This document shows, one piece after another, positions 13,011-63,015 of a DNA stretch of 64,000 bases (position 1 is the stretch's first letter; the number at the start of each line of letters is the position of its first letter). The stretch comes from a virus, in IMG/VR virus record IMGVR_UViG_3300032294_002964, positions 28,078-92,077 of that record. One strand, 5' to 3'. The notes under the pieces were generated by a model. It was not told the origin of the DNA and searched no databases. It saw only the letters and a program-made list of their open reading frames with translations. A program made the translations under genes and the position numbers.

Positions 13011-13604
13011 TTAGATAAAATATTTCACTATATCCTTATTTAAGCCTCCATGATCAAAAATTTTACAGAATTTAAGATATTCATCATCTGAACCTCTAAA
13101 AAAAGTTCCTTCAAATCCTAATTTAGTTACCACATCACCAACATCAGAAACTGAATCTTCTGTCCAAAGACATCCAAATGGTCTAAATTCTGTTTCACTA
13201 TATAATACCTTTAAGCAGTTAATTAGAACTTCGAAATTATCCTGATCAAATAGACTATCATTAAATGAAACACACATATATTCATAAGATGGTATATCAC
13301 CAGATAAGATATATTTTAATTTATTCTTTTTGTTATCTGGAACCTCTCTATTAATTATTAGATAATCTGACATTAGTCCTAATTGATTATTAGTTAGTGT
13401 TGTATTTAATATATCTACAAAATCATCAGTATCGGTTATTGTTCTTAATCTTGCAGATTCAAAATATACATACCCAATATCGAATCCACTTATATTACCT
13501 ATATTATCTGTGAAATCATAAAAATAGCTTTTAACCTCATCTAATGATGGGAACTTACTTTCTAAATTATTAGACTCAAATATTTTGAATTTTTTTATTA
13601 TCAT
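13011..13604 (-). CDS. hypothetical protein with capsid-targeting-like N-terminal leader
   Basis: MIIKKFKIFES. Confidence 0.6.
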   Translation of the reverse strand: MIIKKFKIFESNNLESKFPSLDEVKSYFYDFTDNIGNISGFDIGYVYFESARLRTITDTDDFVDILNTTLTNNQLGLMSDYLIINREVPDNKKNKLKYILSGDIPSYEYMCVSFNDSLFDQDNFEVLINCLKVLYSETEFRPFGCLWTEDSVSDVGDVVTKLGFEGTFFRGSDDEYLKFCKIFDHGGLNKDIVKYFI

Positions 13605-14137
13605 AATTGAATATTATATTCTGATTTATCCGGTCTAACATAAACAATTTTAGAAATGTTCTTTATTTGATATTTGTAATTAGAATCGGCATATTTTTGT
13701 CCTAAACCTTTTTTAACATAGGCAATTGTAATATGTGGTTTATATTCTGGAAATTGATTAGAATTCGGAAGTTCTGATAATTTCTTATAAACCTCTTCTA
13801 ATTTAGGTGTCTTATTCACTTCAAGTTTAACAACATCAAATTCTGGATTTTCAAATAATGAAATACCACTAATTTCCACTTTGAAGTCATCTTCGGTAGC
13901 ATCTTGAAAACAACTTTGTATTTGCTCATCTGTAACTGTATCATGTATACCATATAATAAAGTTAGGTGTGGTCTTGGTTGTATTCCATAATTTTTACCT
14001 TCTACTTTATAAATATCTTCTTGTTGTATTGAATCTAATAGGTCGGACCAATTTGCAAAGTTATAGTCAACCATTACACAACCATACTCATATCTTGTTT
14101 GTGATTCTTTTATAAATTGTTTGTAATTTTTCATCAT
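13601..14137 (-). CDS. 2H phosphoesterase, T4 57B/Acb1-like, with N-terminal leader
   Basis: Two HxT motifs (PHLTLLYG, YKPHITIAY), GCVM near the N-terminus; leader MMKNYKQFIKES. Confidence 0.75.
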   Translation of the reverse strand: MMKNYKQFIKESQTRYEYGCVMVDYNFANWSDLLDSIQQEDIYKVEGKNYGIQPRPHLTLLYGIHDTVTDEQIQSCFQDATEDDFKVEISGISLFENPEFDVVKLEVNKTPKLEEVYKKLSELPNSNQFPEYKPHITIAYVKKGLGQKYADSNYKYQIKNISKIVYVRPDKSEYNIQL

Positions 14138-14169
14138 AAACTATTTATTAAATTTTTGATACAAAGATT

Positions 14170-14514
14170 GTGAATTGGTATAAAATATTTTTATGTGTTA
14201 GTGTTTTGTTTTTTGCACAGATAGTTACTTGGTTCCAGATGTTTGGTCAATTTAAGTGGGATTTCTTCAAAAACAATTTATTCTTAGTTTGTCTTACTGG
14301 TATACCAATAACATTAATGTATTATTACTCAACTAAATATGGAGTGGAAGGATTTGGAAATTCTTGGTCTTTAAGAATAGTTCAATTTGTAATGGGTATA
14401 ACTATATTTACGCTATTCAATTATTTCTTATTAGATGAGGGTATAGATAAAAAAAACACAATCTGTTTAGGATTGTGTTTTATAATTGTTTTAATACAAG
14501 CTTTTTGGAAGTAA
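14170..14514 (+). CDS. small 4-TM membrane protein (DMT/EamA-like)
   Basis: Four hydrophobic segments in 114 aa. Confidence 0.55.
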   Translation: MNWYKIFLCVSVLFFAQIVTWFQMFGQFKWDFFKNNLFLVCLTGIPITLMYYYSTKYGVEGFGNSWSLRIVQFVMGITIFTLFNYFLLDEGIDKKNTICLGLCFIIVLIQAFWK

Positions 14515-16708: not shown

Positions 16709-17650
16709 ATGAATAAATTTGATTTTGAGCAAGTTAACCTTGTTCCACGCAAGTGTGTCGTTGATTCAAGGAGTGAGTGTGATACTTCTGTAAAATTCGG
16801 AAACTTCACATTTAAAATGCCTATTGTTCCTGCAAACATGGAATGTGTCATTGATGAAAATGTTGCTATAAAATTGGCAAAGGCAGGATACTTTTATATA
16901 ATTCACCGATTTAATGTTAATCCGATCTTATTCATTCTGCAAATGAAGAATCTTGGATTGGTTTCATCTATATCACTTGGAGTTAATGAAGACTCTTATA
17001 AGATTATTGATGAAATGAAGTCTACTAGTATGATACCAGACTTTATAACAATTGATATCGCACACGGTCATTCAATCAAAATGGAAAGAATGATTAAATA
17101 TATCAAAGAAAACTTACCTACTGTGTTTGTAATTGCTGGTAATATTTCAACATCTGACGCAGTTAGAGATTTAGAAGAATGGGGAGCTGACGCAACTAAG
17201 GTTGGAATTGGACCGGGAATGGCTTGTACTACTTGGCCGACAACTGGATTTGGATCGAGAAATTGTCAAGCTGCTACGGTATACAACTGTTCTCTTGTTG
17301 CTACTAAACCAATTGTTGCTGATGGTGGTATTCGTGTACCAGGTGACATTGCTAAAAGTTTAGTTCTTGGTGCTACTATGGTAATGGTTGGTGGGATGTT
17401 ATCCGGATTTAAAGACTCTCCAGGTCACTTAGTTAGTATTGATGGTAAATACAAAAAAGAATTTTGGGGATCAGCATCACAATTTCAATCAGGAAAATCA
17501 AATCGTATTGAAGGTACTAAAATTCTAGTTGATTATAAAGATCGTTCTATTTTAGATGAAATGAAATATTTAGAAGAATGTCTTCAAAGTTCAATTTCAT
17601 ACGGTGGTGGAACCGATCTTAGTTGTTTTTCTAAGGTTAAGTGGATTTAA
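16709..17650 (+). CDS. guaC: GMP reductase
   Basis: SRSECDT, PANM, TIDIAHGHS, KVGIGPG.ACTT, ADGGIR, FWGSAS; start set at MNKFDFE. Confidence 0.9.
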   Translation: MNKFDFEQVNLVPRKCVVDSRSECDTSVKFGNFTFKMPIVPANMECVIDENVAIKLAKAGYFYIIHRFNVNPILFILQMKNLGLVSSISLGVNEDSYKIIDEMKSTSMIPDFITIDIAHGHSIKMERMIKYIKENLPTVFVIAGNISTSDAVRDLEEWGADATKVGIGPGMACTTWPTTGFGSRNCQAATVYNCSLVATKPIVADGGIRVPGDIAKSLVLGATMVMVGGMLSGFKDSPGHLVSIDGKYKKEFWGSASQFQSGKSNRIEGTKILVDYKDRSILDEMKYLEECLQSSISYGGGTDLSCFSKVKWI

Positions 17651-18333
17651 ACTTCAAAGGTTACTTTAAAATCACCATGACTATAGTTATAACTGCTGAA
17701 ACCAAATCTATTACACACTAAATCAAATAGTTCTTCTACTTCTTTATCAATTTTACCATTGTAACTTGTGGATTCAAATTCTATTGTTACTTCAACCGCT
17801 TCTTTTGAATAATGTGGTCTATAATAGTCAAATGATAGATTTGTCAATCCGTATTTACTAAATAGTGACTCAATATCTTCTTCATCTGGCCATTTAAAAT
17901 CTTCATCTAGCTTTTGGTCTGGTTTAGAAAAATAGAATGATAACATCATGAATTTAACATCACCTTCATTATTAGGTGGTGGACTAGTACTAATTTTCAT
18001 ATCATACATTGACCAATCTTCATCTTTTAATCTACCTATTGTAGTTTGTATTTGACTAACAATAGATACAAAATCTGTATAATCTTTAACATCATGGAAT
18101 ACAATAATAAAGTGACCTCTGATCACATTTCCAGTATTTATAATTGGTTTGAAATTTTTATAACGAGAACTTTTATCAATATAGTCTTGATAATTCATAT
18201 CATCAATAGGTGACTTAAACAAGATTTTTCTATCATCATCTAAAAAATCTCGCATAGCATCAATAATTATATCCACTTCATTTTCATGAGTGTGATTTTC
18301 ATTTATTCTATTGAAATATTTTAAGTGTTTCAT
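17647..18333 (-). CDS. hypothetical protein with N-terminal leader
   Basis: MKHLKYFNRINE. Confidence 0.65.
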   Translation of the reverse strand: MKHLKYFNRINENHTHENEVDIIIDAMRDFLDDDRKILFKSPIDDMNYQDYIDKSSRYKNFKPIINTGNVIRGHFIIVFHDVKDYTDFVSIVSQIQTTIGRLKDEDWSMYDMKISTSPPPNNEGDVKFMMLSFYFSKPDQKLDEDFKWPDEEDIESLFSKYGLTNLSFDYYRPHYSKEAVEVTIEFESTSYNGKIDKEVEELFDLVCNRFGFSSYNYSHGDFKVTFEV

Positions 18334-18857
18334 TTTTTATCCTCTTCTATTGATGTATAATAAAAATCACATTTTAAATCTAAGAAATTTATAACATCAT
18401 CAAATTTCATTTGTTTATCAAAAATCTCTTTTCTTACATATTTATGCAAGTTGTCTAATGATTTTTGATAATATTCGTCTTTTATATCCATTTTAGACCA
18501 GTCAAAAGATGCTGATTTTTTACTATAAATTGAAAAACCTATTTTAATAACGCCAAAGTTGTCAGTCTTAACATTTAAAATAACAACTGGTTTCCATGCG
18601 TGTTTAGCAGCAGATAGTGATGTATTAAATTCTTTATGATATTTTTCTAACCATTCGCTATTACAAGGTCCACCACTCCACTCACCATTTCTTATGTACA
18701 TCTCCTTATAATCTTCAATCATCTTTGTAATTAAATCTTGATCTTTGCATTCGTATTTAGTACCGATTGAAATAGATACATCACATTCAGAACCATAGAT
18801 ATCTATAAGTCCTAAATCATCTTCTTCAAATTCTTCAAATATTTTTAAATATTTCAT
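18330..18857 (-). CDS. hypothetical protein with N-terminal leader
   Basis: MKYLKIFEEFEE. Confidence 0.65.
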   Translation of the reverse strand: MKYLKIFEEFEEDDLGLIDIYGSECDVSISIGTKYECKDQDLITKMIEDYKEMYIRNGEWSGGPCNSEWLEKYHKEFNTSLSAAKHAWKPVVILNVKTDNFGVIKIGFSIYSKKSASFDWSKMDIKDEYYQKSLDNLHKYVRKEIFDKQMKFDDVINFLDLKCDFYYTSIEEDKK

Positions 18858-19348
18858 ACTTCTAAAACAAATTGACCTCTATAAGCTTTAAAATCTTCTT
18901 TCTTCATTACAGTAATAACAGTTAAAGTGAACTCATTATCACCTGCCTCTAACTGACAAACAATATTTAAATTAGATTTTTTATTCTTTATAACAAATCT
19001 ATTTGGTTCACCTGCTCTAACACCACGAGTTGGATAATCATCTTCATCTTGATAAATATCAAATCTATCTTGCATTAATGCAATTGTTAATTCTTCAACT
19101 CCTGATTCAATTGTATCTAATATTTCATCTTTAGATATACCAGCTTCAATTTTACCACCAGTATCAGTAACCCCATGTCTATATTGTCTTGAAAGAGCAT
19201 GACCGATGGCCTCTACATCAATTCTAATTTCAACTGGCTGTTTGATATCACCAATAAATTCTGGACCCTTTCTATCCATTAATTTTGGACTCACATATCC
19301 AGGTCTAATGGCTTCAGATATTTGTTTGAATGATTTTAAATGTCTCAT
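18854..19348 (-). CDS. hypothetical protein with N-terminal leader, possible BECR/RelE-like fold
   Basis: MRHLKSFKQISE; HALSRQYRH...LTVITVM. Confidence 0.55.
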   Translation of the reverse strand: MRHLKSFKQISEAIRPGYVSPKLMDRKGPEFIGDIKQPVEIRIDVEAIGHALSRQYRHGVTDTGGKIEAGISKDEILDTIESGVEELTIALMQDRFDIYQDEDDYPTRGVRAGEPNRFVIKNKKSNLNIVCQLEAGDNEFTLTVITVMKKEDFKAYRGQFVLEV

Positions 19349-19378
19349 AGATTTATATATTAATTTAATAATATACTA

Positions 19379-19762
19379 TTAACGCCCGTAAATATTTATT
19401 GTATAGACAGATCCACCTGTCCAACCTATTTCACACTCAAGGCCTAATCTACTTAGTCTGTTGATGAACTCTCTCATATCCATTTGAAAGTCCTCTCCTA
19501 AATATCCATCAACACCAGCAGATCCAAAATAATCATCAAATAATATATCAATGGAAGCACACCAAGAACTTTCACTAGGAAATCTAAGAGAATAACAATT
19601 ATCAAGGTCTCCTGAGTGCCATCGTTGTAGATCATCAAAGTTATCTACATATTTTAAATCATATTGATCTGCATACTCTCTAAATATATCTAAAATATCA
19701 TCCAGATAATCATTGATTAAATATTTTTTAGACTCATTAAAATTTTTGAATTTTTTTATCAT
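19379..19762 (-). CDS. hypothetical protein with N-terminal leader
   Basis: MIKKFKNFNES. Confidence 0.65.
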   Translation of the reverse strand: MIKKFKNFNESKKYLINDYLDDILDIFREYADQYDLKYVDNFDDLQRWHSGDLDNCYSLRFPSESSWCASIDILFDDYFGSAGVDGYLGEDFQMDMREFINRLSRLGLECEIGWTGGSVYTINIYGR

Positions 19763-19766
19763 TTAA

Positions 19767-20621
19767 TTAGTAAATTATTATTCCAAGTTCGTGAAGTTCT
19801 TCACTACCATATTCCTCAATAAATTCATCTACTGGATAGAATTCATTTTCGTTTGTTAATTCGATGTCAATATTTAAATCATACTCAGACAAGAATGATT
19901 GTAGTCTTTTAATAGTTGGTAAAATATGATCATTAAATCTAAAAAAATTAAAAGAATTATCTTCTAAATCTATATTAATAGAGTCTTTTAATTCTGAATC
20001 TTTTTTCTCATAAAGCTTATGATATTGACCTATAGTAGAATCAACATCTATATCGTGTTCTTCTAAATCCAATAATATATCTTTAATATCATCAAAAATT
20101 AATTCAAGTGTTGACCTATCAACTGACTCATTAATATCTTCTAAATCTCTAAAAGTTAAATCTAAATAAATAACATGTCTTAGAGATTGTTTTTTGGCGA
20201 ATGGTAACTCATCAATATATCTTTTCATTCTTGAAATACTATTGAACCAAACACCATCAAATGTTCTTAAATAGATACTAGATAACTCTATATTAAATTG
20301 ACTCTCTACGTGTTTTATAGATGATTCAACCTCTTCAAAAAAATCATCATCAATAGCAAAAACTCCTTTTTCAAGTGGTTTCAATCTTATTGAAAAGCTT
20401 TTAAAGCTACCAAGATATCTACCATCTGGTCCTATTTTTGAAAATTCATTATGATCTGTAACTATTTCTTTATCACCCAATGATAGTGCATGTCCAGTAT
20501 AAACATCTGAAACTTCTAATCCACAATCTTTCACACCAACAAAAATATCTGAAATCTCTTGAACAGTTTCCTCACTCTCTTTATTAGATTCAAATAGTTT
20601 ATATGATTTTAAATATCTCAT
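19767..20621 (-). CDS. two-domain hypothetical protein with N-terminal leader
   Basis: MRYLKSYKLFES; internal DINES followed by a second copy of the I-x-D-I helix. Confidence 0.65.
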   Translation of the reverse strand: MRYLKSYKLFESNKESEETVQEISDIFVGVKDCGLEVSDVYTGHALSLGDKEIVTDHNEFSKIGPDGRYLGSFKSFSIRLKPLEKGVFAIDDDFFEEVESSIKHVESQFNIELSSIYLRTFDGVWFNSISRMKRYIDELPFAKKQSLRHVIYLDLTFRDLEDINESVDRSTLELIFDDIKDILLDLEEHDIDVDSTIGQYHKLYEKKDSELKDSINIDLEDNSFNFFRFNDHILPTIKRLQSFLSEYDLNIDIELTNENEFYPVDEFIEEYGSEELHELGIIIY

Positions 20622-20624
20622 AGA

Positions 20625-21011
20625 TTATATATAAAAGTCTATATTTATTCTGGATGTATATGGCCAATTTTCATCCATTTTAAGACCAGATGTTCTCAAT
20701 CCTCTACTATCTAAATAGATGTAAAATGGAGAAATATCACCATCAGCACGATGAAAGTTTGCACTATATCTATAACCAATTTCATTCATAATAGAAATTG
20801 ACTTTTTTAAGGTATTTGAAATTAGGCTATCAAAGAAGAATATACCTCTACTTTTAATTGTAACTCTATATTCACTATTTCCACTATCATCATATCCTTT
20901 AAAAACTTCAACATCATATCCCTCATCTATTAAGTCTGTAAATATATCTTTAAGATGTTCTTGAACATCATCTAATGACTCATTTATGTTAAAATATTTA
21001 AGATACTTCAT
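20625..21011 (-). CDS. hypothetical protein with N-terminal leader
   Basis: MKYLKYFNINES. Confidence 0.65.
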   Translation of the reverse strand: MKYLKYFNINESLDDVQEHLKDIFTDLIDEGYDVEVFKGYDDSGNSEYRVTIKSRGIFFFDSLISNTLKKSISIMNEIGYRYSANFHRADGDISPFYIYLDSRGLRTSGLKMDENWPYTSRINIDFYI

Positions 21012-32075: not shown

Positions 32076-33338
32076 TTAATTATCTTCATTTTCAGGATCA
32101 GACTCTTGAAAGAATAGTGTTGGATCTTTCTTCTTCAAGAAGTCTCTTGACTTTAAAAGTCTTTCATTTTGATCTCTGACCCAATCTTTTGCGAGTTCAT
32201 ACGGCTCAATCCCTTTAGTCATTTGCATTACATAACCAAAGTTTGGTTCTTTCTTATAGTATTTAAGAGCATATTCCTTTCTATCAGAACCCATATCAAG
32301 GAATACTTGATATGATTTCTTAATATCTTCTTCTTTATCACTAACCGCCTTCTTGATAATAGAAATTATCTTATTAATTCTCTCATGTGCTTCTTTTTCA
32401 TCTTCTGGGACTTGTCCTAAGATATCATCAATCTTATCATCTAAGATATAACCTACGATGATATGTTCACGATACAAATCATTTGTAAGAAGACCATGAC
32501 GCTCGCAATACCAAGGAGTCTTGATTTTGAAAAAGAAATCTTTTCCATATTCATCCTCAGTTTGAACAATCACACCTTCTTTATCAACTTGAGTTGCATT
32601 CACTTCAATAAGTGAATCTAAATCTTTAGAATCATCTTCAAATGGTGCAATTCTGATAGTAGATATCTTATCTAAGTGATCTTTTATATTTAAATGTTTT
32701 CCAGTAGAATTATCTCTCATTCTCAAAAGAATAAGATCCTCTTCCAAGTATCTTAATACAATTCTATTTGCAGGAGATACATACTCAAAAATTGCAGTAA
32801 TATTGTTATCTATACACCAATCAACAAATTCTTTAACATCTGCTCTGGTTCTATAAACTCTATTGATACCATTAGCTTGTTCATTATCAAATCCCATTTT
32901 AGATTTACCTAAAATTTTACCATTTGGTAATTGAATATATGATGCAATAGATCCATCCTCTTTGTTGTTTACAAATTTTATTTTGTAATTTTTAACAATA
33001 GAGTATGCAGACTCTGGTACTTGATTTAAGTTAAAGAACTTCTCAAGTAGTAAGAATCTTTTATATAGAGTACCATCAGTATTAAATACGAAAGTAAGAC
33101 CTCTCATTTCATATGCTTTAACTTCTGGTCTATTTTCTAATGGAGTGACAAAATCTCGATATTGAGCAAGTCGGTAATTGAAAACAGATATTGGATATCC
33201 ATCAATCACAAATTTAGACTCATAGAATGGAGACTCTTCTCTAGAGCACATCTCGACACAATCTTCATAAGTTGGAAGATAGTGTGATGATAAGTCTGTT
33301 GATTCTTTTAAAAATTCTATGTAGTTAAATATTTTCAT
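32076..33338 (-). CDS. rnlA: T4 Rnl1-like RNA ligase with N-terminal leader
   Basis: EMRGL, KFFN, motif I KEDGS, FEY, EGVIV, KIK; leader MKIFNYIEFLKES. Confidence 0.85.
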   Translation of the reverse strand: MKIFNYIEFLKESTDLSSHYLPTYEDCVEMCSREESPFYESKFVIDGYPISVFNYRLAQYRDFVTPLENRPEVKAYEMRGLTFVFNTDGTLYKRFLLLEKFFNLNQVPESAYSIVKNYKIKFVNNKEDGSIASYIQLPNGKILGKSKMGFDNEQANGINRVYRTRADVKEFVDWCIDNNITAIFEYVSPANRIVLRYLEEDLILLRMRDNSTGKHLNIKDHLDKISTIRIAPFEDDSKDLDSLIEVNATQVDKEGVIVQTEDEYGKDFFFKIKTPWYCERHGLLTNDLYREHIIVGYILDDKIDDILGQVPEDEKEAHERINKIISIIKKAVSDKEEDIKKSYQVFLDMGSDRKEYALKYYKKEPNFGYVMQMTKGIEPYELAKDWVRDQNERLLKSRDFLKKKDPTLFFQESDPENEDN

Positions 33339-34472: not shown

Positions 34473-34566
34473 AATAGATTATATATTATTTTTTAAAAAA
34501 TCATTTATAATTTTAAATAAATAACAGTTGGTGATTTATTTTCAAATATAGATTAATATATAATTT

Positions 34567-35322: not shown

Positions 35323-35886
35323 TTATTCCCCTACCTCGATCTCTAGATTTTCCTCTTTTCCAAAGTTTTTATCATATTCAATTTTAAGATCAACTAAGAA
35401 GTTGTCATCTATTGATTCTATTTCAACATTTTTACTTAAAACTGGATAGACAGTACCATCTTCATCATACTTCTTAAATTTAACATAACAGTTCTTAATA
35501 TCTTTATAAGAGAAATTTTTTGTTTTATCTTTAACTATTGCCTCTTCTAATGGTATAGATATGTAAAGATCATATCTAGATTTATCACTGTCTTCAAAAT
35601 AAAATTTTATATTATCATTAAGTGCTGAATATTTACTAAACTCGCTATCAACTAAATTTAAACCTAAATCTTGAAAAGATATTTTAGACTTATCCTTTTC
35701 TTCTTTCTGACCTCTCTTTAAAGCATCACTCATTTTAATTAAATTATCATCAGTAGCTTCCTCTTTATTCTCTTCAAAATAAGACTCTATTTTGATCTTT
35801 AATTTATGTAGAGCTGTTTTAACATACTCTTCAGGAGTTTCATAAACATTTTCATTTATAAAATCTGTAAATTTTGATATCTTCAT
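35323..35886 (-). CDS. hypothetical protein with N-terminal leader
   Basis: MKISKFTDFINE. Confidence 0.65.
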   Translation of the reverse strand: MKISKFTDFINENVYETPEEYVKTALHKLKIKIESYFEENKEEATDDNLIKMSDALKRGQKEEKDKSKISFQDLGLNLVDSEFSKYSALNDNIKFYFEDSDKSRYDLYISIPLEEAIVKDKTKNFSYKDIKNCYVKFKKYDEDGTVYPVLSKNVEIESIDDNFLVDLKIEYDKNFGKEENLEIEVGE

Positions 35887-47511: not shown

Positions 47512-48066
47512 GTGAAACCTTTAATCATTTTAGATATTGATGAAACCTTAATTCACACTGAGAGTGTTCCTTTAGAATATGAAATGCACTATGATTATGA
47601 TTTCAAATTTAAAGGTCTTGGGAAGTCTTTTTATTATACAAAAAAGAGACCATTTCTTGATCAGTTTTTGAAATATGTTTTTGAAAATTTTGATGTTGCA
47701 ATCTGGACAGCAGCTGGTGAGGATTACGCTTTAGAAATTTTAAAAGGAATTAATGTTGATAAATCTAAATTAAAATTCTTTTATACTCAAGAAAACTGTA
47801 CTATTAAACTTAGTTATGATTATTCAGACTACTATGGTGTGAAAAATTTAAATAAATTAAAGAAAAAAGGATACAATTTAGATAAAGTTCTGATCGTGGA
47901 TGATAAATCTGAGACTGCTGTAAACAACTATAGTAATCTAATACAGGTTAAACCATTTACAGACGATTTAGATGATACAGAACTACTTAAATTAATTTCA
48001 TACTTAGAAACTATTAAAGATGAACCCAATTATAGAAGAATTGAAAAACGAGGATGGTCGGTATAG
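47512..48066 (+). CDS. HAD phosphatase, FCP1/NIF family
   Basis: LDIDETLIH, KRPFL, IWTAA, IVDD. Confidence 0.85.
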   Translation: MKPLIILDIDETLIHTESVPLEYEMHYDYDFKFKGLGKSFYYTKKRPFLDQFLKYVFENFDVAIWTAAGEDYALEILKGINVDKSKLKFFYTQENCTIKLSYDYSDYYGVKNLNKLKKKGYNLDKVLIVDDKSETAVNNYSNLIQVKPFTDDLDDTELLKLISYLETIKDEPNYRRIEKRGWSV

Positions 48067-54767: not shown

Positions 54768-54786
54768 TAAAAATAATACATCGAAG

Positions 54787-56411: not shown

Positions 56412-56879
56412 ATGATAATATTAATTAGATGTGATAAAGAAGTCAGAAGTTATAATAACTGGACGACTACTTTTAATTCGGAAATTGGGGATATTAATGA
56501 GGTATTTACCAGTAATGGATTATCTACGCTTCTTCTATATAAAAGAAAACTACCTGATGAAGTTAGAAAATCTACAACTCAAAAAAGAGGAATAGGTTCA
56601 ATTTCGTCACTTGATTTTTCACTATTAACACAAGACTGCATTCTATTATATCATGGTGATGTTCTTGATGAACAGAAAGATGTGAAGGCTATTGAGGAGT
56701 TATTTCAACTTTGTCACAACAATCAAAAACATCTAGTTCTACAATTTAGTTTAGAAAACCAACATTTGATTAATCATATTTGTACTGGATCGGAAGTCTA
56801 TATTCATAGAGATGAATTGAAGACATTCTTAGTAAGACTAGATCGAGAATTAAAGATTAGTAAACTATTTAGCGAATAG
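56412..56879 (+). CDS. hypothetical protein with C-terminal motif
   Basis: Ends DRELKISKLFSE. Confidence 0.6.
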   Translation: MIILIRCDKEVRSYNNWTTTFNSEIGDINEVFTSNGLSTLLLYKRKLPDEVRKSTTQKRGIGSISSLDFSLLTQDCILLYHGDVLDEQKDVKAIEELFQLCHNNQKHLVLQFSLENQHLINHICTGSEVYIHRDELKTFLVRLDRELKISKLFSE

Positions 56880-57453
56880 CAATATAATTTCCTTTCCACT
56901 TCATAGGTGGTAATTTATAGTCAAACATAATCCAATCAATTTTTACATCACTATTTTTTAAATAGTGTTCAAATCTACTAATTGGATAAGAAAGTATTTT
57001 TTTTGGATCTATGTTGGTACTCCTATCTAAATCATCCACTACATCCATTGTCACTGCTTTTCTCAAAACGGAGTGGTTGGTAAAAGACCTTTTTTTGGCA
57101 ATTGTATGAAATTGAATATCTAATTCTTTAAGAATATTTTTTGAAACAGGTTCAAAACCTTCACTCAGTAAATAATTATGTAGGTGAGTTATTGATTGAA
57201 AATCATCCGAATCTAAATAGTGTTCATTTTTTAATAGAAAATGAGGAGAAAATACTTTAAATTTAAACTCGTTATGTGCTTTGGTTCCAGGAAAAACATT
57301 AACATCATCTATTCCATAGCTATAGTTTATTTCAAAACCATCATCCTTTAGAACAGATAATATATCATTGACATTATTGAGAATTTCTTCTCTAAAAGGA
57401 TCACCGTCAAATGGATCTTTTGACTCTAAAAATAATTTCCAGTTCTTAATCAT
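56869..57453 (-). CDS. hypothetical protein with N-terminal leader
   Basis: MIKNWKLFLES; paralog of the next ORF (HLHNYLLSEGFEP / HLDSYLRSEEFEP). Confidence 0.65.
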   Translation of the reverse strand: MIKNWKLFLESKDPFDGDPFREEILNNVNDILSVLKDDGFEINYSYGIDDVNVFPGTKAHNEFKFKVFSPHFLLKNEHYLDSDDFQSITHLHNYLLSEGFEPVSKNILKELDIQFHTIAKKRSFTNHSVLRKAVTMDVVDDLDRSTNIDPKKILSYPISRFEHYLKNSDVKIDWIMFDYKLPPMKWKGNYIAIR

Positions 57454-57914
57454 AGTTTAATTAATTCTCCAATTTTAAAAATATTTCCATTTTTATCATT
57501 ATAAAATCTTAGATAATCAGGTAGATTATATTGAAAATCAATTCTAGTTAAATCGATAACATCCTTATTTACACCAGTTAACATTTTTAGTAATGTGCTA
57601 ATAGGATACTGAGTAAGTTGTCCACTTCTTCTTTGAACAACAACATCTAATTCCTTACCGACAGAAGAATGAGGTTCAAATTCTTCACTTCTTAAATAAC
57701 TATCCAAGTGTAATACAGTTTGAACTTCCTCTATTCCTATTTTTCCCTCTATTATAAAAGAAACCTTAACTTTACCAAACTCTTCTACATAACTCCTTAT
57801 TAGAACTCTAATGTGGTGATCTACTTTCAAAGAAAGAAGAATATCTCTGATATTATCAAGTATTTCTTGGTCTCTACTATTTGACTCTAAAAATAATTTC
57901 CAGTTCTTAATCAT
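57419..57914 (-). repeat. 35-bp exact direct repeat encoding the leader of two tandem paralogs
   Basis: TTTGACTCTAAAAATAATTTCCAGTTCTTAATCAT at 57419-57453 and 57880-57914. Confidence 0.85.
57450..57914 (-). CDS. hypothetical protein with N-terminal leader
   Basis: MIKNWKLFLES. Confidence 0.65.
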   Translation of the reverse strand: MIKNWKLFLESNSRDQEILDNIRDILLSLKVDHHIRVLIRSYVEEFGKVKVSFIIEGKIGIEEVQTVLHLDSYLRSEEFEPHSSVGKELDVVVQRRSGQLTQYPISTLLKMLTGVNKDVIDLTRIDFQYNLPDYLRFYNDKNGNIFKIGELIKL

Positions 57915-58153: not shown

Positions 58154-58170
58154 TTTAATATATATTAAAA
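58153..58170. promoter_or_regulatory. palindromic, bidirectional putative late promoter
   Basis: TTTTAATATATATTAAAA contains TAATATATA on both strands, between divergent leader-bearing genes. Confidence 0.6.
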
Positions 58171-58183: not shown

Positions 58184-58963
58184 ATGAAGTACTTGAAAAA
58201 GTTCAATGAAGAACTTAAACCACAAACATATAAAAGTGCGGCTAGAAAACTTAATAAAATAGTTAAAGAGAAACCAGCTTTGGCTAAAGCTATTGGAGCA
58301 GAGAAAAGAGCTAAAGATCTTGAAGAATACGCGAAAAAAATTGAAGATTTAGGTCAAATTGATCAATGGAAAAAAAATATAGATCAGTTTTCTAAATATG
58401 GTGAGTTTAATATTGAACTATCAAGAAAGGGTGTTAGTAATCTTCTATCATCAAAAGTATATACATTTTATTTAGACTTGAGTACAGATATAGAAATGCT
58501 AATAGACTCTTGGGATGAAGAAGATCCAGATAATAGAGATATCTCATTTGGATTTGCAGGTGGTTTAATTCCTAAAAATATTGAAGATCTCAATGAGATT
58601 AAAATGAATTATACATCAGAATTTTATAATGGATTCTTTTGGGGATTTTGGTTATATGTAGACTATAAAGTTGAAAATAGTGAAGTCTCTTTTAAGGGAA
58701 TCAGATTGTATGATTATGATTCAGTGCCTAATATTCAGATTGCTGATAGAAAGTCAGTAGTAAATCTAAAGAAATTATTAGTTAATTGCTTTGATGAAAC
58801 ATTTGATTATCCAAGTGGATATAAAGATATTCCTAATATGTATGATAAAATTAATCAATCAGCTATTCAAGATCTTGAAATATCATCGACACATGGTATT
58901 GATATGGGTAGAATAAAAGAAGATATTAAAAATACACCAATAATGTCATTTTATAAACAATGA
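58184..58963 (+). CDS. hypothetical protein with N-terminal leader
   Basis: MKYLKKFNEE; paralog of the next ORF (TYKSAARKL/TYLKAGELL, ADRKS/SDRKS). Confidence 0.65.
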   Translation: MKYLKKFNEELKPQTYKSAARKLNKIVKEKPALAKAIGAEKRAKDLEEYAKKIEDLGQIDQWKKNIDQFSKYGEFNIELSRKGVSNLLSSKVYTFYLDLSTDIEMLIDSWDEEDPDNRDISFGFAGGLIPKNIEDLNEIKMNYTSEFYNGFFWGFWLYVDYKVENSEVSFKGIRLYDYDSVPNIQIADRKSVVNLKKLLVNCFDETFDYPSGYKDIPNMYDKINQSAIQDLEISSTHGIDMGRIKEDIKNTPIMSFYKQ

Positions 58964-59757
58964 AACACTTAAAGAAATTTGAAGAATTAAACATATCAAC
59001 ATATCTCAAAGCTGGTGAATTGCTTAGGAAGGGCGGACATAGCAAAAGAGGAGATAAAATGATTGATTGGGCGATGAAAGGTGAACTTAATAAAACACCC
59101 GAACTAAATCTGTGGATTAAATGGATGAACGAGTATCCGCCAAGAGGTGGTAGATCTGCTATTAAAAGGGGAATTGTCAGTGATCTACCTTTAAAGGTTA
59201 GAATAAATTCAATACATGTTAATTTAGATATGTTGAGTGAGGATATTAATTATCATAAAGATGAGAATAATTTTCCGATTTCACTGTCTATATCATTTAA
59301 TATAGATGAATCGGAACTTGAAAAGATTAATCCTGAGTACATTAAAAGTGTTAAAGATGAATGTAAATCTTCAAGTGGATTCAAATTATACCCAATGGAA
59401 CTTTATATGAGCTTTAAGTTAGATGAAAATGGACATATTGCTGAGAATCCTAAATTAAATATATTTTCATATAATGAAATAGGTGCGATGTTTAGTGATA
59501 GAAAGTCTGCTAACAATTTCAAAACAATTCTTAAAAAAGTATTAAGTAATGAAATAAAAGTCTATACTTATTATAAAGATGAAGATGATGATAGTCCAAT
59601 GACTAATTCTGAAGCCATTCTAGATAGAATACCTAAATTAATACCTACTATTGATATATCTGATGTAGAAATTATATTAGACGCATTTAAGAATATCAAT
59701 ACTAATAGTTTATATGCGGATGATCCAAATGATGCTTTGAAAAGAATTTCAAATTAA
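58960..59757 (+). CDS. hypothetical protein with N-terminal leader
   Basis: MKHLKKFEEL. Confidence 0.65.
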   Translation: MKHLKKFEELNISTYLKAGELLRKGGHSKRGDKMIDWAMKGELNKTPELNLWIKWMNEYPPRGGRSAIKRGIVSDLPLKVRINSIHVNLDMLSEDINYHKDENNFPISLSISFNIDESELEKINPEYIKSVKDECKSSSGFKLYPMELYMSFKLDENGHIAENPKLNIFSYNEIGAMFSDRKSANNFKTILKKVLSNEIKVYTYYKDEDDDSPMTNSEAILDRIPKLIPTIDISDVEIILDAFKNINTNSLYADDPNDALKRISN

Positions 59758-59881
59758 CTATATTTGCAGTATGATAACTAAGTATAAACTTTTCTGCGGC
59801 AATTAAAAAAATTTAAAGATGTGTTCAGTATATTTTGACTTTTTCGGTATTTATAATTAATATATAAAAATAAAAAAGTAT

Positions 59882-60742
59882 ATGAGAATATATTGGACAA
59901 AAGAGGAAGAAGATGAATTAAGATATTATTATGAAAATCTTGGATTATCGGTTTCTGAATTTTATAAGGATTTTATAAAAAAATATCCATATAGAACAAT
60001 AGAATCTTTGAAGATAAAGATAGTTAAACTTAAATTAAGGCATACAAAAGAACAAAAATTTCAAATAAAATCAAGGTTCACTAAGGGTGAAAATAATGGA
60101 ATGTTTGGTAAAGAAGGACCAAATAAAGGATTAACTAAAGATAATTCAGAAAGAATTAAAAATTCATCTGAGAAGATGTCTAAAACCAGAAAAGAAATGT
60201 TTAAGTGTGGATTATTATCATTATCAGGTGAAAACAATGGAATGTTCGGTAAAGATCCTTGGAATAAAGGTTTAACAAAATATACACATAATAGTTTATT
60301 GGAAGCTGGATTAAAGCAATCAAGATTCAGAAGAGAATATTGGGAATCTCTAAGTGATGAAGATAAAGACAAAATAGTTGGTGATTTATCACTTGCTGCT
60401 AATAAAGCTAAGAAAGACACAAAAATTGAAACCATAGTTAAAGATACACTTGATGGTTTAGATATTAAATATGTAAAAAACTTTAGGTGTGATAGATATA
60501 TTTTTGACTTTTATCTAACAGATTTTAATTTTGTAATAGAGTGTCAAGGTGATTACTGGCATGGTAACCCTGAGTATTTTAATGAGCTTAACGAGATACA
60601 ATTAAAAAACTTGGAAAGAGATAAGAGAAAGATAAATTATTTACAAGAAAATAATATAAAATCATTATATTTGTGGGAAAATGAAATATATAAATTTAAG
60701 ACAAATCTTGATAAAATAATCTTAGATAAGATAAATGAGTAA
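59882..60742 (+). CDS. putative free-standing homing endonuclease (NUMOD3-like repeats + Vsr/DUF559-like domain)
   Basis: GENNGMFGK twice, WNKGLTK, DF...IECQGDYWH, RDKRK, LWENEI. Confidence 0.75.
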   Translation: MRIYWTKEEEDELRYYYENLGLSVSEFYKDFIKKYPYRTIESLKIKIVKLKLRHTKEQKFQIKSRFTKGENNGMFGKEGPNKGLTKDNSERIKNSSEKMSKTRKEMFKCGLLSLSGENNGMFGKDPWNKGLTKYTHNSLLEAGLKQSRFRREYWESLSDEDKDKIVGDLSLAANKAKKDTKIETIVKDTLDGLDIKYVKNFRCDRYIFDFYLTDFNFVIECQGDYWHGNPEYFNELNEIQLKNLERDKRKINYLQENNIKSLYLWENEIYKFKTNLDKIILDKINE

Positions 60743-61922
60743 GTATATAAAAAAATATAAACAATTTGTAAATGAGAACAAAATCTCAACTGAGATTCCT
60801 TTGCCAAATGATATCATAGAGATATCAAATGCTTATATTGACGCAGATAAAGATATTTTCTTAGTTGGTGGTGCTGTTAGGGATTTTATTCAAGGAATTG
60901 AACCTAAAGATTATGATCTAGTTACAAACGCTCTTCCTAATGAATCAAAAGAAATATTAAAAGGATTTAATGTCTCTGATGAACAGGGTAAAAATTTCGG
61001 AGTGCTTAGAGTTTTTACAAAAGATGAACCAACTGGGTATGAAATTGCGTCATATAGAAGAGATATTTCTGGTGGTAGAGATACCAAGGGTGACGACCAA
61101 AAGGTTGAAATGGGTGGTGATGTTACAATAGAAGATGATTGTAATAGACGAGACCTAACTATGAATGCCTTATTCTATGATATCAAAAACAAACAAATTG
61201 TTGATTTAGTTGGTGGTGTTGAGGATATCAAAAATGGAATAGTTAGAGCGGTTGGTGACGCTGGGCAAAGATTTATAGAAGACCGATTAAGAATCTGTAG
61301 AATATTTAGATTTGCAGCAAGAACCGGTGGTGAAATAGACTCAAAAACAGCTCAAGCTATTAGAAATGATAATAGATTAAAAGGAGTTGGACCTAAAGAT
61401 GATGTTTCTCAAGAAAGAGTATGGGAAGAAATTAAAAAGGCTTTCAAACAGGCTAAATCTTTTAAACATTATCTTGAATTCTTTAATGAGTTTGATATGT
61501 GGGAAGAAGTATTTCCAGGATCTAAAATCAATACAGATATTGATGAATGTGAAGAACTAACTTCATATGTTGCAAACCTGTTTAAGCTTGAAAACACTTC
61601 TAGATTAGAACAGAAAATGATCTTAGAGTATAAGATTGAATCTGATATTGCTACTAAAGTTGTTTTCCTAATTGACTTACTTCAATTGACTGTTGAGACT
61701 GCATTTGATCTTTACAAAAAGAAGATTAGATGTCATGTTACAAACCATCAAATTATTGATTGGTTGGATACTAATGGTATACATAAGTCTATCTTTATTA
61801 GATTTATTGATTATGTACCAACTGTATCTGCAGAAGATTTAATGTCACAAGGATTCAAGGGTAGAGAACTTGGTGATGAAATAAAAAAGAGAGAAATTGA
61901 AAAATTTAAACAAATGTTATGA
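60735..61922 (+). CDS. cca: class II tRNA nucleotidyltransferase (CCA-adding) / poly(A) polymerase family, with N-terminal leader
   Basis: LVGGAVRD, KDYDLVT, RRDLTMNA, FIEDRLR, RFAAR, SQERV; leader MSKYIKKYKQFVNE. Confidence 0.88.
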   Translation: MSKYIKKYKQFVNENKISTEIPLPNDIIEISNAYIDADKDIFLVGGAVRDFIQGIEPKDYDLVTNALPNESKEILKGFNVSDEQGKNFGVLRVFTKDEPTGYEIASYRRDISGGRDTKGDDQKVEMGGDVTIEDDCNRRDLTMNALFYDIKNKQIVDLVGGVEDIKNGIVRAVGDAGQRFIEDRLRICRIFRFAARTGGEIDSKTAQAIRNDNRLKGVGPKDDVSQERVWEEIKKAFKQAKSFKHYLEFFNEFDMWEEVFPGSKINTDIDECEELTSYVANLFKLENTSRLEQKMILEYKIESDIATKVVFLIDLLQLTVETAFDLYKKKIRCHVTNHQIIDWLDTNGIHKSIFIRFIDYVPTVSAEDLMSQGFKGRELGDEIKKREIEKFKQML

Positions 61923-62164
61923 AAAAATTCACAGAGTCGATAGATAACAACGAGGAGAATGATTTCTCAATAGAGTCTGTACAGGCAAAACTTAGAAATA
62001 AGTTAGGTCCTTTTTGGACTCTATCTGAGATGATTTCAAATTCCGATACATTTGAAAAACTTCTTTCAACTGAAAAAGGAAGAGAATTAATTATTGGATG
62101 TGCTAAACAATGTGAGTTAAATAAAGAAAGAATCTTAGAACTTATAAAAATAACAGAGGAGTGA
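61919..62164 (+). CDS. small hypothetical protein with short leader
   Basis: MKKFTES. Confidence 0.5.
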   Translation: MKKFTESIDNNEENDFSIESVQAKLRNKLGPFWTLSEMISNSDTFEKLLSTEKGRELIIGCAKQCELNKERILELIKITEE

Positions 62165-62277
62165 TGATTTTACCTGATATCAATACAATGGTCTTTATGC
62201 ACATGACTTCTTCATTTGGTTAAAGAACCATCAACTTTAATATTTAAGTTTTATATATAACGAAAAATATAAAATTA

Positions 62278-63015
62278 ATGACTTTTTATTTAACATATCT
62301 CAAAGATGTTATTGGTAATAACTACTTGGGTATAAAATTCGATAATAATACAGTTGAACCCTTTTTAAATAAGCTTAAAGACATCTTAACAGATGAAGAG
62401 TATGATGTCTATACTGGTAATCAACAAAAAAGAGACCATGGATCATACCATATGACAGTTATTAATGTTATGGATTATAATCGTCTTTCAAAAGAAATTG
62501 GTGTGGATAAGTTTATTAATTCTCTTGAAGTTGTTTTTGATACTCAAATTGATGACTTAAAAATGTTAGGAGTTGGTACAGCCACAAAGAATGAAAACAC
62601 ATCCTACTTTGTTGTCTGTAAATCGGAGAAATTAAATTCGGTAAGAGAAAGATATGGTCTTCCTGAGCATGATATGCACATTACCTTAGGATTCAAATGG
62701 AAAGATGTATTTGGTGTGAGAAAGAACCAGGTTTTGGAAAATAATTCTAAATTTTTGAAACTTCTTAAACAAGAATTTTATAAGAAAGAAAATTTTAATT
62801 TTATTCGCCAAATTTCAAATTTTGATGAAGATCCAGAGTTAGATATTGTACCAATTTCAATAACAGAGTCTCATTTAAAAGTTTTAGTAGGTGATAAAAT
62901 AATGGATATAGGATTAATTGATGGTGATAATAAACTTTTTATTTTCACTAAATATAAAAAATCCTCGGAAGTGGTCAGATTACCACTTACTGAGATATAT
63001 AGAATTTTAAAATAA
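62278..63015 (+). CDS. 2H phosphoesterase (RNA-repair-associated type)
   Basis: RD...YHMTVI and HITLGF. Confidence 0.75.
   Translation: MTFYLTYLKDVIGNNYLGIKFDNNTVEPFLNKLKDILTDEEYDVYTGNQQKRDHGSYHMTVINVMDYNRLSKEIGVDKFINSLEVVFDTQIDDLKMLGVGTATKNENTSYFVVCKSEKLNSVRERYGLPEHDMHITLGFKWKDVFGVRKNQVLENNSKFLKLLKQEFYKKENFNFIRQISNFDEDPELDIVPISITESHLKVLVGDKIMDIGLIDGDNKLFIFTKYKKSSEVVRLPLTEIYRILK

What the first reader, a model, noticed from the sequence alone, without database searches (positions are those of the whole stretch)
13601..63015. RNA-repair and anti-defence enzymes carry the packaging-like leader: a possible pre-loaded counter-defence kit
Seen: the Rnl1-like ligase (32076-33338), the CCA-adding enzyme (60735-61922) and the 57B/Acb1-like 2H phosphoesterase (13601-14137) each begin with the leader, directly ahead of the catalytic domain. 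A second 2H enzyme (62278) and a HAD phosphatase (47512) lack it. Established: T4 Rnl1 with Pnk repairs PrrC-cut tRNA, and Acb1 degrades CBASS cyclic nucleotides. Inference: this phage may package tRNA-repair and signal-degrading enzymes so that they act at injection, before phage translation begins.
Basis: partly seen in the sequence, partly recalled or inferred. Interest (0 to 1): 0.8.

Follow-up and report, generated by a model that had tools for sequence, protein, structure and literature searches.

The report
Capsid-loading tag on megaphage RNA-repair enzymes
A giant uncultured phage of Bacteroidota-type hosts puts a short tag, matching the one phage T4 uses to load proteins into its head, on an RNA ligase, a tRNA-tail (CCA-type) enzyme, a 2H phosphoesterase and about a hundred unrelated late proteins, so these enzymes are probably delivered ready-made with the DNA, though no one has examined such a virion.

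Summary
Observation confirmed. Rnl1-family ligase (32076-33338, -), class II CCA/poly(A)-type nucleotidyltransferase (60735-61922, +) and 2H phosphoesterase (13601-14137, -) each start with an 11-14-residue leader, K-x-Y-x-x-F-[ILV]-x-E-[S/N]. The second 2H enzyme and the HAD phosphatase lack it.

The leader is an add-on:
- 122 of 125 full-length Rnl1 representatives align only from query residue 16 or later.
- AlphaFold leaves 2H residues 1-16 disordered ahead of a confident domain.
- A more distant megaphage (LR756504) has Rnl1 and CCA genes without the leader.

The leader is a genome-wide tag. It heads 16 ORFs in the window and 118 of 907 in the complete relative LR745206 (109 unrelated clusters), with almost no interior matches. 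Selection acts on the protein, not the DNA.

Its four conserved positions are the T4 IPIII positions mapped for targeting (Y4, F7) and processing (I8, E10). A model built from the megaphage leaders alone picks out T4 IPII and IPIII. Relatives encode a gp23-like capsid protein and a gp21-like protease with its His and Ser. 84% of tagged genes lie in units headed by a motif also found before head genes.

Packaging, cleavage, injection and counter-defence activity are all inferred. The Acb1 and CCA specificities are unresolved. This scan noted the same tag before on other megaphage DNA.

The parts
32076..33338 (-). Rnl1-family RNA ligase, 420 aa, with leader
   Evidence: Pfam PF09511 75.8 bits (cut-off 28.3); PHROG 562 E 3e-56 covering residues 24-385. 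KEDG motif visible in the translation. Leader HMM 10.5 bits.
33303..33338 (-). Rnl1 leader, residues 1-12 (MKIFNYIEFLKE), predicted cut after Glu12
   Evidence: 122 of 125 full-length representatives align only from query residue 16 or later. The LR756504 ortholog starts at MIEKFHIPSYEE, without it. About 119 close orthologs keep the pattern.
60735..61922 (+). Class II tRNA nucleotidyltransferase / poly(A) polymerase family enzyme, 395 aa, with leader
   Evidence: Pfam PF01743 101.6 bits; PHROG 2244 E 6e-58 covering residues 39-393. NCBIfam hits all below cut-off, so specificity is open. Leader HMM 24.2 bits.
60735..60776 (+). Nucleotidyltransferase leader, residues 1-14 (MSKYIKKYKQFVNE), predicted cut after Glu14
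   Evidence: Orthologs in LR745206 and LR756502 and about 119 metagenomic relatives keep K-x-Y-x-x-F-h-x-E-[NS]. The LR756504 ortholog lacks it.
13601..14137 (-). 2H phosphoesterase, 178 aa, two HxT motifs, with leader
   Evidence: Pfam 2_5_RNA_ligase2 40.9 bits, Acb1 27.9 bits (cut-off 27). AlphaFold domain 17-178 at pLDDT about 95. Foldseek gives a generic 2H fold.
14105..14137 (-). 2H leader, residues 1-11 (MMKNYKQFIKE), predicted cut after Glu11
   Evidence: Residues 1-16 have pLDDT below 50, with a detached short helix at 6-13. Y5 and F8 are nearly invariant in 50 homologs down to 44% identity. The leader is kept in nearly all of the 120 relatives listed; the few without it look like truncated or fragmentary calls.
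34480..34487 (-). AATATATA late-type promoter-like motif heading the overlapping three-gene unit 33975-34472 / 33325-33978 / Rnl1
   Evidence: The same motif sits 10-40 nt before the portal-like gene, the protease and a 1910-aa ORF (presumed structural, not annotated) in LR745206.
59859..59866 (+). AATATATA motif before 59882-60742, which overlaps the nucleotidyltransferase gene; a second copy at 60685-60692 lies 50 nt before its start
62278..63015 (+). Second 2H enzyme (2H-SAK), no leader
   Evidence: Pfam PF22547 77 bits; N-terminus MTFYLTYLKD.
47512..48066 (+). NIF/FCP1-type HAD phosphatase, no leader, although a late-type motif lies 12 nt upstream
   Evidence: Pfam PF03031 124.5 bits; motif at 47500-47507.
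13011..13604 (-). Leader-bearing ORF (MIIKKFKIFES), 197 aa, no family, overlapping the 2H gene end
   Evidence: HMM 16.6 bits; no Pfam or PHROG hit.
17647..21011 (-). Tandem array of six leader-bearing ORFs without family: 17647-18333, 18330-18857, 18854-19348, 19379-19762, 19767-20621, 20625-21011
   Evidence: HMM 10.6-22.3 bits; no Pfam families above cut-off.
35323..35886 (-). Leader-bearing ORF (MKISKFTDFINEN), 187 aa
   Evidence: HMM 15.0 bits.
40106..41668 (+). Leader-bearing ORF (MSKIRSYNKFNEE), 520 aa, PHROG 1462 of unknown function, late motif 13 nt upstream
56869..57914 (-). Two leader-bearing ORFs (MIKNWKLFLES): 56869-57453 and 57450-57914
   Evidence: HMM 11.3 and 13.4 bits.
58184..59757 (+). 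Two leader-bearing ORFs (MKYLKKFNEE, MKHLKKFEEL): 58184-58963 and 58960-59757
   Evidence: HMM 15.6 and 14.1 bits; late motif at 58157-58164.

Best explanation
The three enzymes carry a T4-type capsid targeting propeptide. It is an 11-14-residue N-terminal amphipathic segment, K-x-Y-x-x-F-[ILV]-x-E followed by S or N, bolted onto otherwise ordinary catalytic domains. Proposed mechanism, by analogy with T4 IPI-III and Alt. (1) The genes are transcribed late, together with head genes. (2) The aromatic pair (Y, F) docks the precursor onto the scaffolding core of the prohead. (3) The gp21-family prohead protease cuts after the Glu of the hydrophobic-x-Glu box and frees the mature enzyme inside the shell. 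(4) The enzymes leave with the DNA at the next infection. The phage would then enter the cell with RNA-end repair and nucleotide-phosphodiester-hydrolysing activities already made. Shown here: the tag exists, is an add-on, is under protein-level selection, is shared by about 13% of the proteome of a complete relative, matches the mapped functional positions of the T4 tag, goes with a late-type promoter motif, and the clade has T4-type head and protease genes. Inferred: docking, cleavage, presence in virions, ejection, and any counter-defence role.
For: Add-on. 122 of 125 near-full-length Rnl1 representatives (32-59% identity) align from query residue 16 or later, median 20, to their own residue 3. 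Pfam and PHROG matches start after the leader. AlphaFold gives 2H residues 1-16 pLDDT below 50 and the domain about 95. LR756504 has Rnl1 and CCA genes without the leader, although 64 of its other ORFs carry the same tag.
Selection. About 120 orthologs of each enzyme keep Y, F, h and E while other positions vary. Synonymous codon use in the leader equals the genome-wide use, for example Ser AGT 21% against 24%.
A tag, not a family. 118 of 907 ORFs in LR745206 carry it, with 3 interior hits at the same 8-bit threshold, and the mature parts fall into 109 BLAST clusters.
Likeness to T4. Mutagenesis of the IPIII tag maps targeting to residues 4 and 7 and processing to 8 and 10 (PMC9026906); these are Y, F, I and E of MKTYQEFIAE. 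The leader HMM, built without any T4 sequence, scores IPII and IPIII at 10.7 bits over residues 1-11, and 21 other T4 proteins at 4.4 bits or less.
Machinery in relatives. Gp23 Pfam matches above cut-off. The adjacent 700-aa ORF matches T4 gp21 by hhalign at 88% probability, E 2.9e-6, with GEFDHP and VSSR kept. An invariant LNES follows the protease domain, and the capsid protein's N-terminal region ends in FHxINEN.
Timing. 99 of 118 tagged genes lie in units headed by [AT]ATATATA, against 265 of 789 others; only 7 lie behind the host-type TAnnTTTG. The motif sits 10-40 nt before the portal-like, protease and large structural genes.
Cargo theme in LR745206. The families identified are PolyA_pol, Rnl1, 2H (fused to a DEDD exonuclease), nucleotide cyclase and NFACT-R. 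No replication, tail or terminase family appears.
Against: There are no virion, proteomic or cleavage data for any member of this uncultured clade. The window's own 92-kb contig lacks the head module, so protease and capsid genes are known only from relatives. About 118 cargo species is far more than T4's handful. Tagged proteins are on average acidic (-0.062 net charge per residue against -0.016), whereas T4 internal proteins are basic. The protease match is below Pfam's cut-off, and the PDB profile hit to 5JBL is only E 0.66. The 2H gene has no late motif within 60 nt. A depletion of internal h-x-E-[SN] sites in tagged proteins (O/E 0.81 against 1.19) is not significant, and control motifs drift the same way. 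The MAFFT alignment places the capsid protein's INEN box opposite T4 gp23 residues 36-40, not the known Glu65 cut. T4 Rnl1 also has a late morphogenetic role in tail-fibre attachment, which could explain late expression without packaging.
Confidence: 0.55

Rival explanations
1. The leader does target proteins to the prohead and is cut there, but the tagged proteins serve head assembly or stay in the capsid as core, filler or charge-balancing material. The enzymes are not delivered as working effectors.
For: Many tagged ORFs are small and acidic, with poly-Asp/Glu stretches after the leader, which recalls scaffold-derived acidic peptides. Tagged genes flank the capsid gene in LR745206.
Against: Rnl1, the nucleotidyltransferase and 2H keep intact catalytic motifs, and their orthologs are conserved at 45-98% identity. 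That is hard to explain for filler. T4 shows that tag-fused enzymes are ejected and active (PMC9026906).
Confidence: 0.12
2. The leader is a tag for a different late-stage process: recognition by the phage's own DnaK/DnaJ chaperones, a degradation or activation signal, a modification-enzyme recognition site, or sorting to another compartment. The likeness to the T4 tag is convergent.
For: The window encodes DnaK and DnaJ (27319-29190, 22984-24036). A second, C-terminal tag marks another 10% of ORFs, almost never the same ones, and goes with early-type promoters, so this phage sorts proteins by terminal tags in general. An earlier scan case (e1-127136) first took a shared phage N-terminal tag for a capsid signal, and its follow-up re-read it as a radical-SAM recognition site (a reading that a later check only partly upheld).
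Against: This does not explain why the four conserved positions are exactly the T4 targeting and processing positions, why the tag always ends in hydrophobic-x-Glu as in gp21 substrates, or why the same box follows the protease domain.
Confidence: 0.2
3. The enzymes work only in the producing cell late in infection: Rnl1 as a tail-fibre attachment helper or RNA repair enzyme, the nucleotidyltransferase finishing phage tRNAs. The leader is irrelevant to their role, or is a leftover of cassette recombination at conserved gene starts.
For: T4 gp63 (Rnl1) has a late morphogenetic role (established knowledge; the PHROG 562 name). An earlier scan follow-up (e1-5692573) favoured maturation of phage tRNAs.
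Against: The pattern is conserved across about 120 orthologs per enzyme with free synonymous variation, which argues for function. No tRNA gene lies in the window. The untagged 2H and HAD enzymes also have late-type motifs, so the tag is not simply a property of late genes.
Confidence: 0.1

Closest known systems
Phage T4 capsid targeting sequence on internal proteins IPI, IPII, IPIII and Alt, removed by prohead protease gp21 (Mullaney and Black 1996, cited in PMC9026906 and PMC3012670)
   Same: A short N-terminal propeptide on unrelated proteins. Same spacing, K-x-Y-x-x-F-[ILV]-x-E followed by a small residue. The conserved residues are those mapped for targeting (4, 7) and processing (8, 10). 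Relatives have a gp21-like protease and a gp23-like capsid protein. In T4 the cargo includes a counter-defence protein (IPI*) and an enzyme (Alt).
   Different: About 16 tagged ORFs in this window and 118 in a complete relative, against a handful in T4. Cargo is mostly acidic rather than basic. Cargo includes an RNA ligase, a CCA/poly(A)-type nucleotidyltransferase, 2H phosphoesterase, cyclase and NFACT-R, none known as T4 head cargo. The leader has two registers (MKYLKxYKLFES and MxKKYxQFIKES). Nothing has been shown experimentally.
Ejection proteins of giant phages phiKZ and SPN3US, processed by their prohead protease (PMC5694885, PMC7411985, PMC10052503)
   Same: Large capsids carrying tens of different proteins, many trimmed after Glu by a gp21-related protease and delivered into the cell.
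   Different: Those phages have no short shared N-terminal tag of this kind, according to the T4/SPN3US comparison papers. Their cleavage motif is reported (from memory, not read here) as small-x-Glu rather than hydrophobic-x-Glu. Their hallmark cargo is a virion RNA polymerase.
T4 tRNA repair (Pnkp plus Rnl1 against PrrC) and Acb1 (gene 57B) against CBASS
   Same: An Rnl1-family ligase and a 2H phosphoesterase encoded by a T4-type phage. A P-loop AAA_33 kinase is also present on the contig.
   Different: In T4 these enzymes are made after infection and are not known to be packaged. Here the ligase and one 2H enzyme carry the head tag. Assignment of the 2H enzyme to Acb1 is not established. 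A nucleotidyltransferase is an additional tagged enzyme.

Membership tests
T4-type capsid targeting sequence / internal-protein system | Short N-terminal propeptide shared by otherwise unrelated proteins | tested here: met
   HMM hits: 16 window ORFs, and 118 of 907 in LR745206 with 3 interior hits at the same 8-bit threshold; mature parts fall into 109 clusters.
T4-type capsid targeting sequence / internal-protein system | Targeting residues (IPIII Tyr4, Phe7) and processing residues (Ile8, Glu10) in the same spacing | tested here: met
   Y-x-x-F-[ILV]-x-E in all three enzymes and their orthologs. T4 IPII and IPIII score 10.7 bits with the megaphage HMM. Mapping taken from PMC9026906.
T4-type capsid targeting sequence / internal-protein system | Phage encodes a gp21-family prohead protease and a gp23-type capsid protein | tested here: inconclusive
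   Met in relatives LR745206, LR756502 and LR756504: Gp23 Pfam above cut-off; protease hhalign 88% probability, E 2.9e-6, His and Ser kept. The window's own 92-kb contig does not include the head module.
T4-type capsid targeting sequence / internal-protein system | Late expression together with head genes | tested here: inconclusive
   84% of tagged genes lie in units headed by [AT]ATATATA, a motif also before the protease, portal-like and large structural genes. That this motif is a late promoter is inferred, not measured.
T4-type capsid targeting sequence / internal-protein system | Protein present in virions, cut after Glu, ejected into the host | not testable with these tools
   Uncultured phage; no proteomic data held.
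Rnl1 (T4 RnlA) RNA ligase | Family profile over near full length, with the KxDG adenylylation motif | tested here: met
   PF09511 75.8 bits (cut-off 28.3); PHROG 562 covers residues 24-385; KEDG present. NCBIfam equivalog TIGR02308 scores 134 bits, below its cut-off of 242, so this is a family member but not an equivalog.
Class II CCA-adding enzyme | PolyA_pol head domain, plus specificity for CCA addition rather than poly(A) | tested here: inconclusive
   PF01743 101.6 bits. All NCBIfam CCA and PcnB models are below cut-off and PcnB scores highest.
Acb1 anti-CBASS 2H nuclease | Acb1 profile match and Acb1-specific fold; activity on cyclic oligonucleotides | tested here: inconclusive
   PF23474 27.9 bits against a cut-off of 27, while the general 2H family scores 40.9 bits. 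Foldseek ranks Usb1, a phage phosphodiesterase and Acb1 alike, TM 0.47-0.63. Activity not testable.

The most novel reading that the evidence does not exclude
Megaphages of this clade use a T4-type head-loading tag on over a hundred unrelated late proteins, about 13% of the proteome. They inject a ready-made enzyme payload (RNA ligase, CCA-type nucleotidyltransferase, 2H phosphodiesterase with or without a DEDD exonuclease, nucleotide cyclase, NFACT-R RNA-binding protein) that repairs RNA ends and destroys or makes nucleotide signals before any phage gene is expressed. A second, almost mutually exclusive C-terminal tag on mostly early-promoter proteins would make this a two-tag system for sorting the proteome.
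Probability: 0.35. Interest if true: 0.85.

Novelty: new variant of a known kind. Interest (0 to 1): 0.7.

Why it matters
If the tag works as in T4, the content of an uncultured megaphage's capsid can be read from its genome sequence. That content would include RNA-repair and nucleotide-processing enzymes, a class of injected cargo not described for any phage. This would help explain what very large capsids and genomes are for. It would extend the idea of pre-loaded counter-defence from single inhibitors (IPI*, DarA/B) to whole enzyme sets. It would also give a simple, testable rule (Y-x-x-F-h-x-E) for finding delivered effectors in metagenomes and for loading foreign proteins into other T4-type heads.

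Tried and rejected
1. Nucleotide-level explanation (translation-start or recombination motif): rejected. Synonymous codon use in the leader equals the genome-wide use.
2. One expanded paralog family: rejected. 118 tagged proteins fall into 109 clusters once the first 18 residues are removed.
3. Depletion of internal h-x-E-[SN] sites in tagged proteins, as a signature of protease exposure: O/E 0.81 against 1.19, but within about 1.3 sd, and control motifs drift the same way. Inconclusive.
5. Protease against solved structures. The single-sequence PDB search gave no meaningful hit. The profile search gave T4 gp21 (5JBL) only at E 0.66. hhalign against T4 gp21 was clearer.
6. Foldseek on the 2H model could not tell Acb1 from other 2H subfamilies.
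7. The WATATATA motif is not over-represented in the window overall: 29 sites against 29.9 expected. Only its position (all 16 AATATATA sites lie within about 100 nt upstream of a co-oriented start) and its link to tagged genes carry information.
8. A scan of alternative internal start codons found no further leaders in the contig.
9. No tRNA genes in the window, so a local link between the nucleotidyltransferase and phage tRNAs could not be examined.
10. Two weak HMM hits were set aside: a TonB-receptor signal peptide outside the window (8.0 bits) and 52088-54229 (7.0 bits, early-type promoter, C-terminal tag).


Full report
WHAT THE DNA IS. The window is the right-hand 64 kb of a 92-kb virus contig with 27-35% G+C. 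Its nearest records are three uncultured 'huge phage' genomes of 634-642 kb: LR745206, LR756502 and the more distant LR756504. The Rnl1 orthologs are 69%, 69% and 40% identical. Near-identical proteins lie on metagenomic contigs of up to 633 kb. Many genes have the Bacteroidota-type TAnnTTTG promoter element upstream, which points to a Bacteroidota host. I fetched LR745206 and LR756504 whole for genome-wide counts.

- 2H phosphoesterase: MMKNYKQFIKE|S
- Rnl1: MKIFNYIEFLKE|S
- nucleotidyltransferase: MSKYIKKYKQFVNE|N

Their identities hold at family level. RNA_lig_T4_1 and PHROG 562 match the ligase. PolyA_pol and PHROG 2244 match the nucleotidyltransferase. The 2'-5' RNA ligase (2H) family matches the third enzyme, which has two HxT motifs. 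The second 2H (2H-SAK) and the NIF-type HAD phosphatase have no leader.

Two labels need softening:
- The nucleotidyltransferase cannot be called CCA-adding rather than poly(A) polymerase. Every NCBIfam equivalog is below its cut-off and PcnB scores highest.
- The 2H enzyme is only marginally Acb1-like: 27.9 bits against a cut-off of 27. Foldseek ranks Usb1, a phage phosphodiesterase and Acb1 about equally.

THE LEADER IS AN ADDED EXTENSION.
- Rnl1: a full scan of 1.8 billion representatives gave 150 best homologs. Of 125 that are near full length with their own N-terminus aligned, 122 align only from query residue 16 or later (median 20) to their own residue 3. Three have leader-like N-termini of their own.
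- The LR756504 ortholog begins at the first conserved helix, with no room upstream for a leader. The same is true of its nucleotidyltransferase.
- 2H: AlphaFold on a 50-sequence alignment gives residues 1-16 pLDDT below 50 (a detached short helix) and the domain from residue 17 about 95.
- About 120 orthologs of each enzyme, down to about 45% identity for 2H, keep the pattern while other leader positions vary.

IT IS A GENOME-WIDE TAG. A strict pattern hits 11 of 128 N-termini in the contig against 0.09 expected from the interior rate. I built an HMM from the N-termini that matched this strict pattern. At 10 bits or more, the counts are as follows:

| Genome | Tagged ORFs | Interior hits |
|---|---|---|
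| Own contig | 19 of 128 (16 in the window) | 0 |
| LR745206 | 105 of 907 | 2 |

At 8 bits or more the counts are 118 for LR745206 and 64 of 887 for LR756504, with 3 and 1 interior hits. With the first 18 residues removed, the 118 LR745206 proteins form 109 BLAST clusters, so this is not one family. Synonymous codon use inside the leader equals genome-wide use, including the split of Ser between TCN and AGY, so selection acts on the peptide. LR756504 uses the tag on other proteins but not on its Rnl1 or nucleotidyltransferase. The tag is therefore gained and lost gene by gene.

WHY A CAPSID TAG IS THE BEST READING.
1. Residue match. T4 IPII and IPIII begin MKTYQEFIAE|A. Amber-suppressor mutagenesis placed targeting at residues 4 and 7 and processing at 8 and 10 (PMC9026906). 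These are Tyr, Phe, Ile and Glu, the four conserved positions of the megaphage leader in the same spacing.
2. Independent recognition. The megaphage HMM contains no T4 sequence, yet it scores IPII and IPIII at 10.7 bits over residues 1-11. The 21 other T4 proteins tested score 4.4 bits or less.
3. Head machinery. All three relatives have a Gp23-family capsid protein above Pfam's cut-off. Just upstream lies a 700-aa ORF whose first 170 or so residues match T4 gp21: BLASTP E 0.001, hhalign 88% probability and E 2.9e-6, with the catalytic His (GEFDHP) and Ser (VSSR) conserved. The rest of that ORF is acidic and scaffold-like.
4. The same box elsewhere. An invariant L-N-E-S follows the protease domain. 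The N-terminal region of the capsid protein ends in F-H-x-I-N-E-N. Both are copies of the box that ends the leader.
5. Timing. The motif [AT]ATATATA sits 10-40 nt before starts. It precedes the portal-like gene, the protease and a 1910-aa ORF (presumed structural, not annotated), with a variant before the capsid gene. By transcription unit, 99 of 118 tagged genes are behind it, against 265 of 789 others. Only 7 are behind the host-type element. In the window, the Rnl1 unit and the nucleotidyltransferase unit are both headed by it; the 2H gene is not within 60 nt.
6. Cargo theme. The identifiable tagged proteins of LR745206 are the same three enzymes, a nucleotide cyclase, an NFACT-R RNA-binding protein (encoded right after the capsid gene), DUF6576 and a DEDD exonuclease. 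No replication, tail or terminase family appears among them. In LR745206 the exonuclease is fused to the 2H enzyme through a joint reading I-S-E-S-I-N-E-N, two cleavage-type boxes.

WHAT IS NOT SHOWN. No step of docking, cleavage, packaging or ejection has been observed for this clade. Specific weaknesses:
- The head genes come from relatives, because the contig is a fragment.
- The protease match is sub-threshold in Pfam and weak against PDB.
- The number of tagged species is far above T4's.
- The tagged proteins are on average acidic, unlike T4's basic internal proteins.
- The site-avoidance test was inconclusive.
- The alignment does not place the capsid protein's box at T4's known Glu65 cut.

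The counter-defence part (PrrC, CBASS, PARIS) rests only on what the enzyme families do elsewhere. The 2H enzyme could equally open 2',3'-cyclic phosphate RNA ends. That would fit a heal-and-seal route with Rnl1 and the untagged AAA_33 kinase found on the contig.

RIVALS.
- A head-internal role without delivery.
- A different late-stage tag system. The phage encodes DnaK and DnaJ. It also has a second, C-terminal tag, R-x-x-K-[IL]-x-x-[IL]-[LF], on 93 of 907 LR745206 ORFs. Only one of those also carries the leader, against about 12 expected if independent, and half are in early-type units.
- Purely intracellular late roles for the enzymes.

None of these explains the residue-for-residue match with the mapped T4 positions together with the protease-type box.

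EARLIER WORK AND NOVELTY. The T4 tag and its use to load foreign proteins are textbook (PMC3012670, PMC9026906). I found no paper linking it to huge phages or to RNA-repair enzymes. This scan has noted the same or similar tags on other DNA, including tagged CCA-type enzymes in related megaphages and RNA-ligase-like cargo in marine T4-like phages. Those are unverified AI notes. I used them as leads for the promoter motif, the C-terminal tag and the rival readings, and re-tested what I could.

VERDICT. Observation confirmed. The packaging reading is well supported by sequence evidence but unproven. This is a new variant of a known kind.

Noticed in passing
window 15475-56879 (e.g. 15475-16008, 16005-16364, 46518-46886, 48813-49121, 51668-52048, 56412-56879); LR745206 genome-wide: A C-terminal tag, R-x-x-K-[IL]-x-x-[IL]-[LF], ends 14 of 128 contig ORFs and 93 of 907 LR745206 ORFs (about 0.8 expected). 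It is almost mutually exclusive with the N-terminal leader: 1 overlap against about 12 expected. Half of its carriers lie in units behind the host-type TAnnTTTG element. This may be a second sorting or turnover tag for early proteins.
   Followed up: partly
window, upstream of 46930, 52088, 54787, 63521 and others: Bacteroidota-type promoter element TAnnTTTG (for example CTTATATTTGTA) precedes a distinct set of genes. Together with [AT]ATATATA units it splits the genome into two promoter classes.
   Followed up: partly
L042:8260-9573 (LR745206 448257-449573, - strand): In LR745206 the tagged 2H enzyme is fused to a DEDD (RNase T-type) exonuclease. The joint reads K-I-S-E-S-I-N-E-N, two protease-type boxes, which suggests a cargo polyprotein cut at maturation. 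In the window the 2H gene is instead followed by an unrelated tagged ORF (13011-13604).
   Followed up: partly
L029:18546-20000 and L030 (LR745206 198546-202434): The protease and an acidic scaffold-like region are one 707-aa ORF directly upstream of the gp23-like capsid gene, with an invariant LNES after the protease domain. An NFACT-R RNA-binding protein with the leader is encoded right after the capsid gene (202508-202897).
   Followed up: partly
window 22984-24036 and 27319-29190: Phage-encoded DnaJ-like and DnaK-like (Hsp70) genes, judged from their N-terminal sequences only.
   Followed up: no
window 52001-56000: A local G+C rise to 35%, against 27-30% elsewhere. The region includes a 713-aa ORF without family and a 528-aa HNH-endonuclease-like ORF (PHROG 1314, E 6e-39), possibly mobile or recently acquired DNA.
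   Followed up: no
G000:C1:3737-4153 (outside the window, about 24 kb before its start): An untagged AAA_33 P-loop kinase (Pfam 70 bits), a candidate polynucleotide kinase partner for the ligase.
   Followed up: no
window 59882-60742: The ORF overlapping the start of the nucleotidyltransferase gene has a weak Vsr-type endonuclease match in its C-terminal part (NCBIfam TIGR00632, E 5e-7, below cut-off).
   Followed up: no
protein P0428 (metagenomic, 788 aa): An Rnl1 homolog fused behind a P-loop kinase-like N-terminal half. This is a single-chain kinase-ligase arrangement in another lineage.
   Followed up: no
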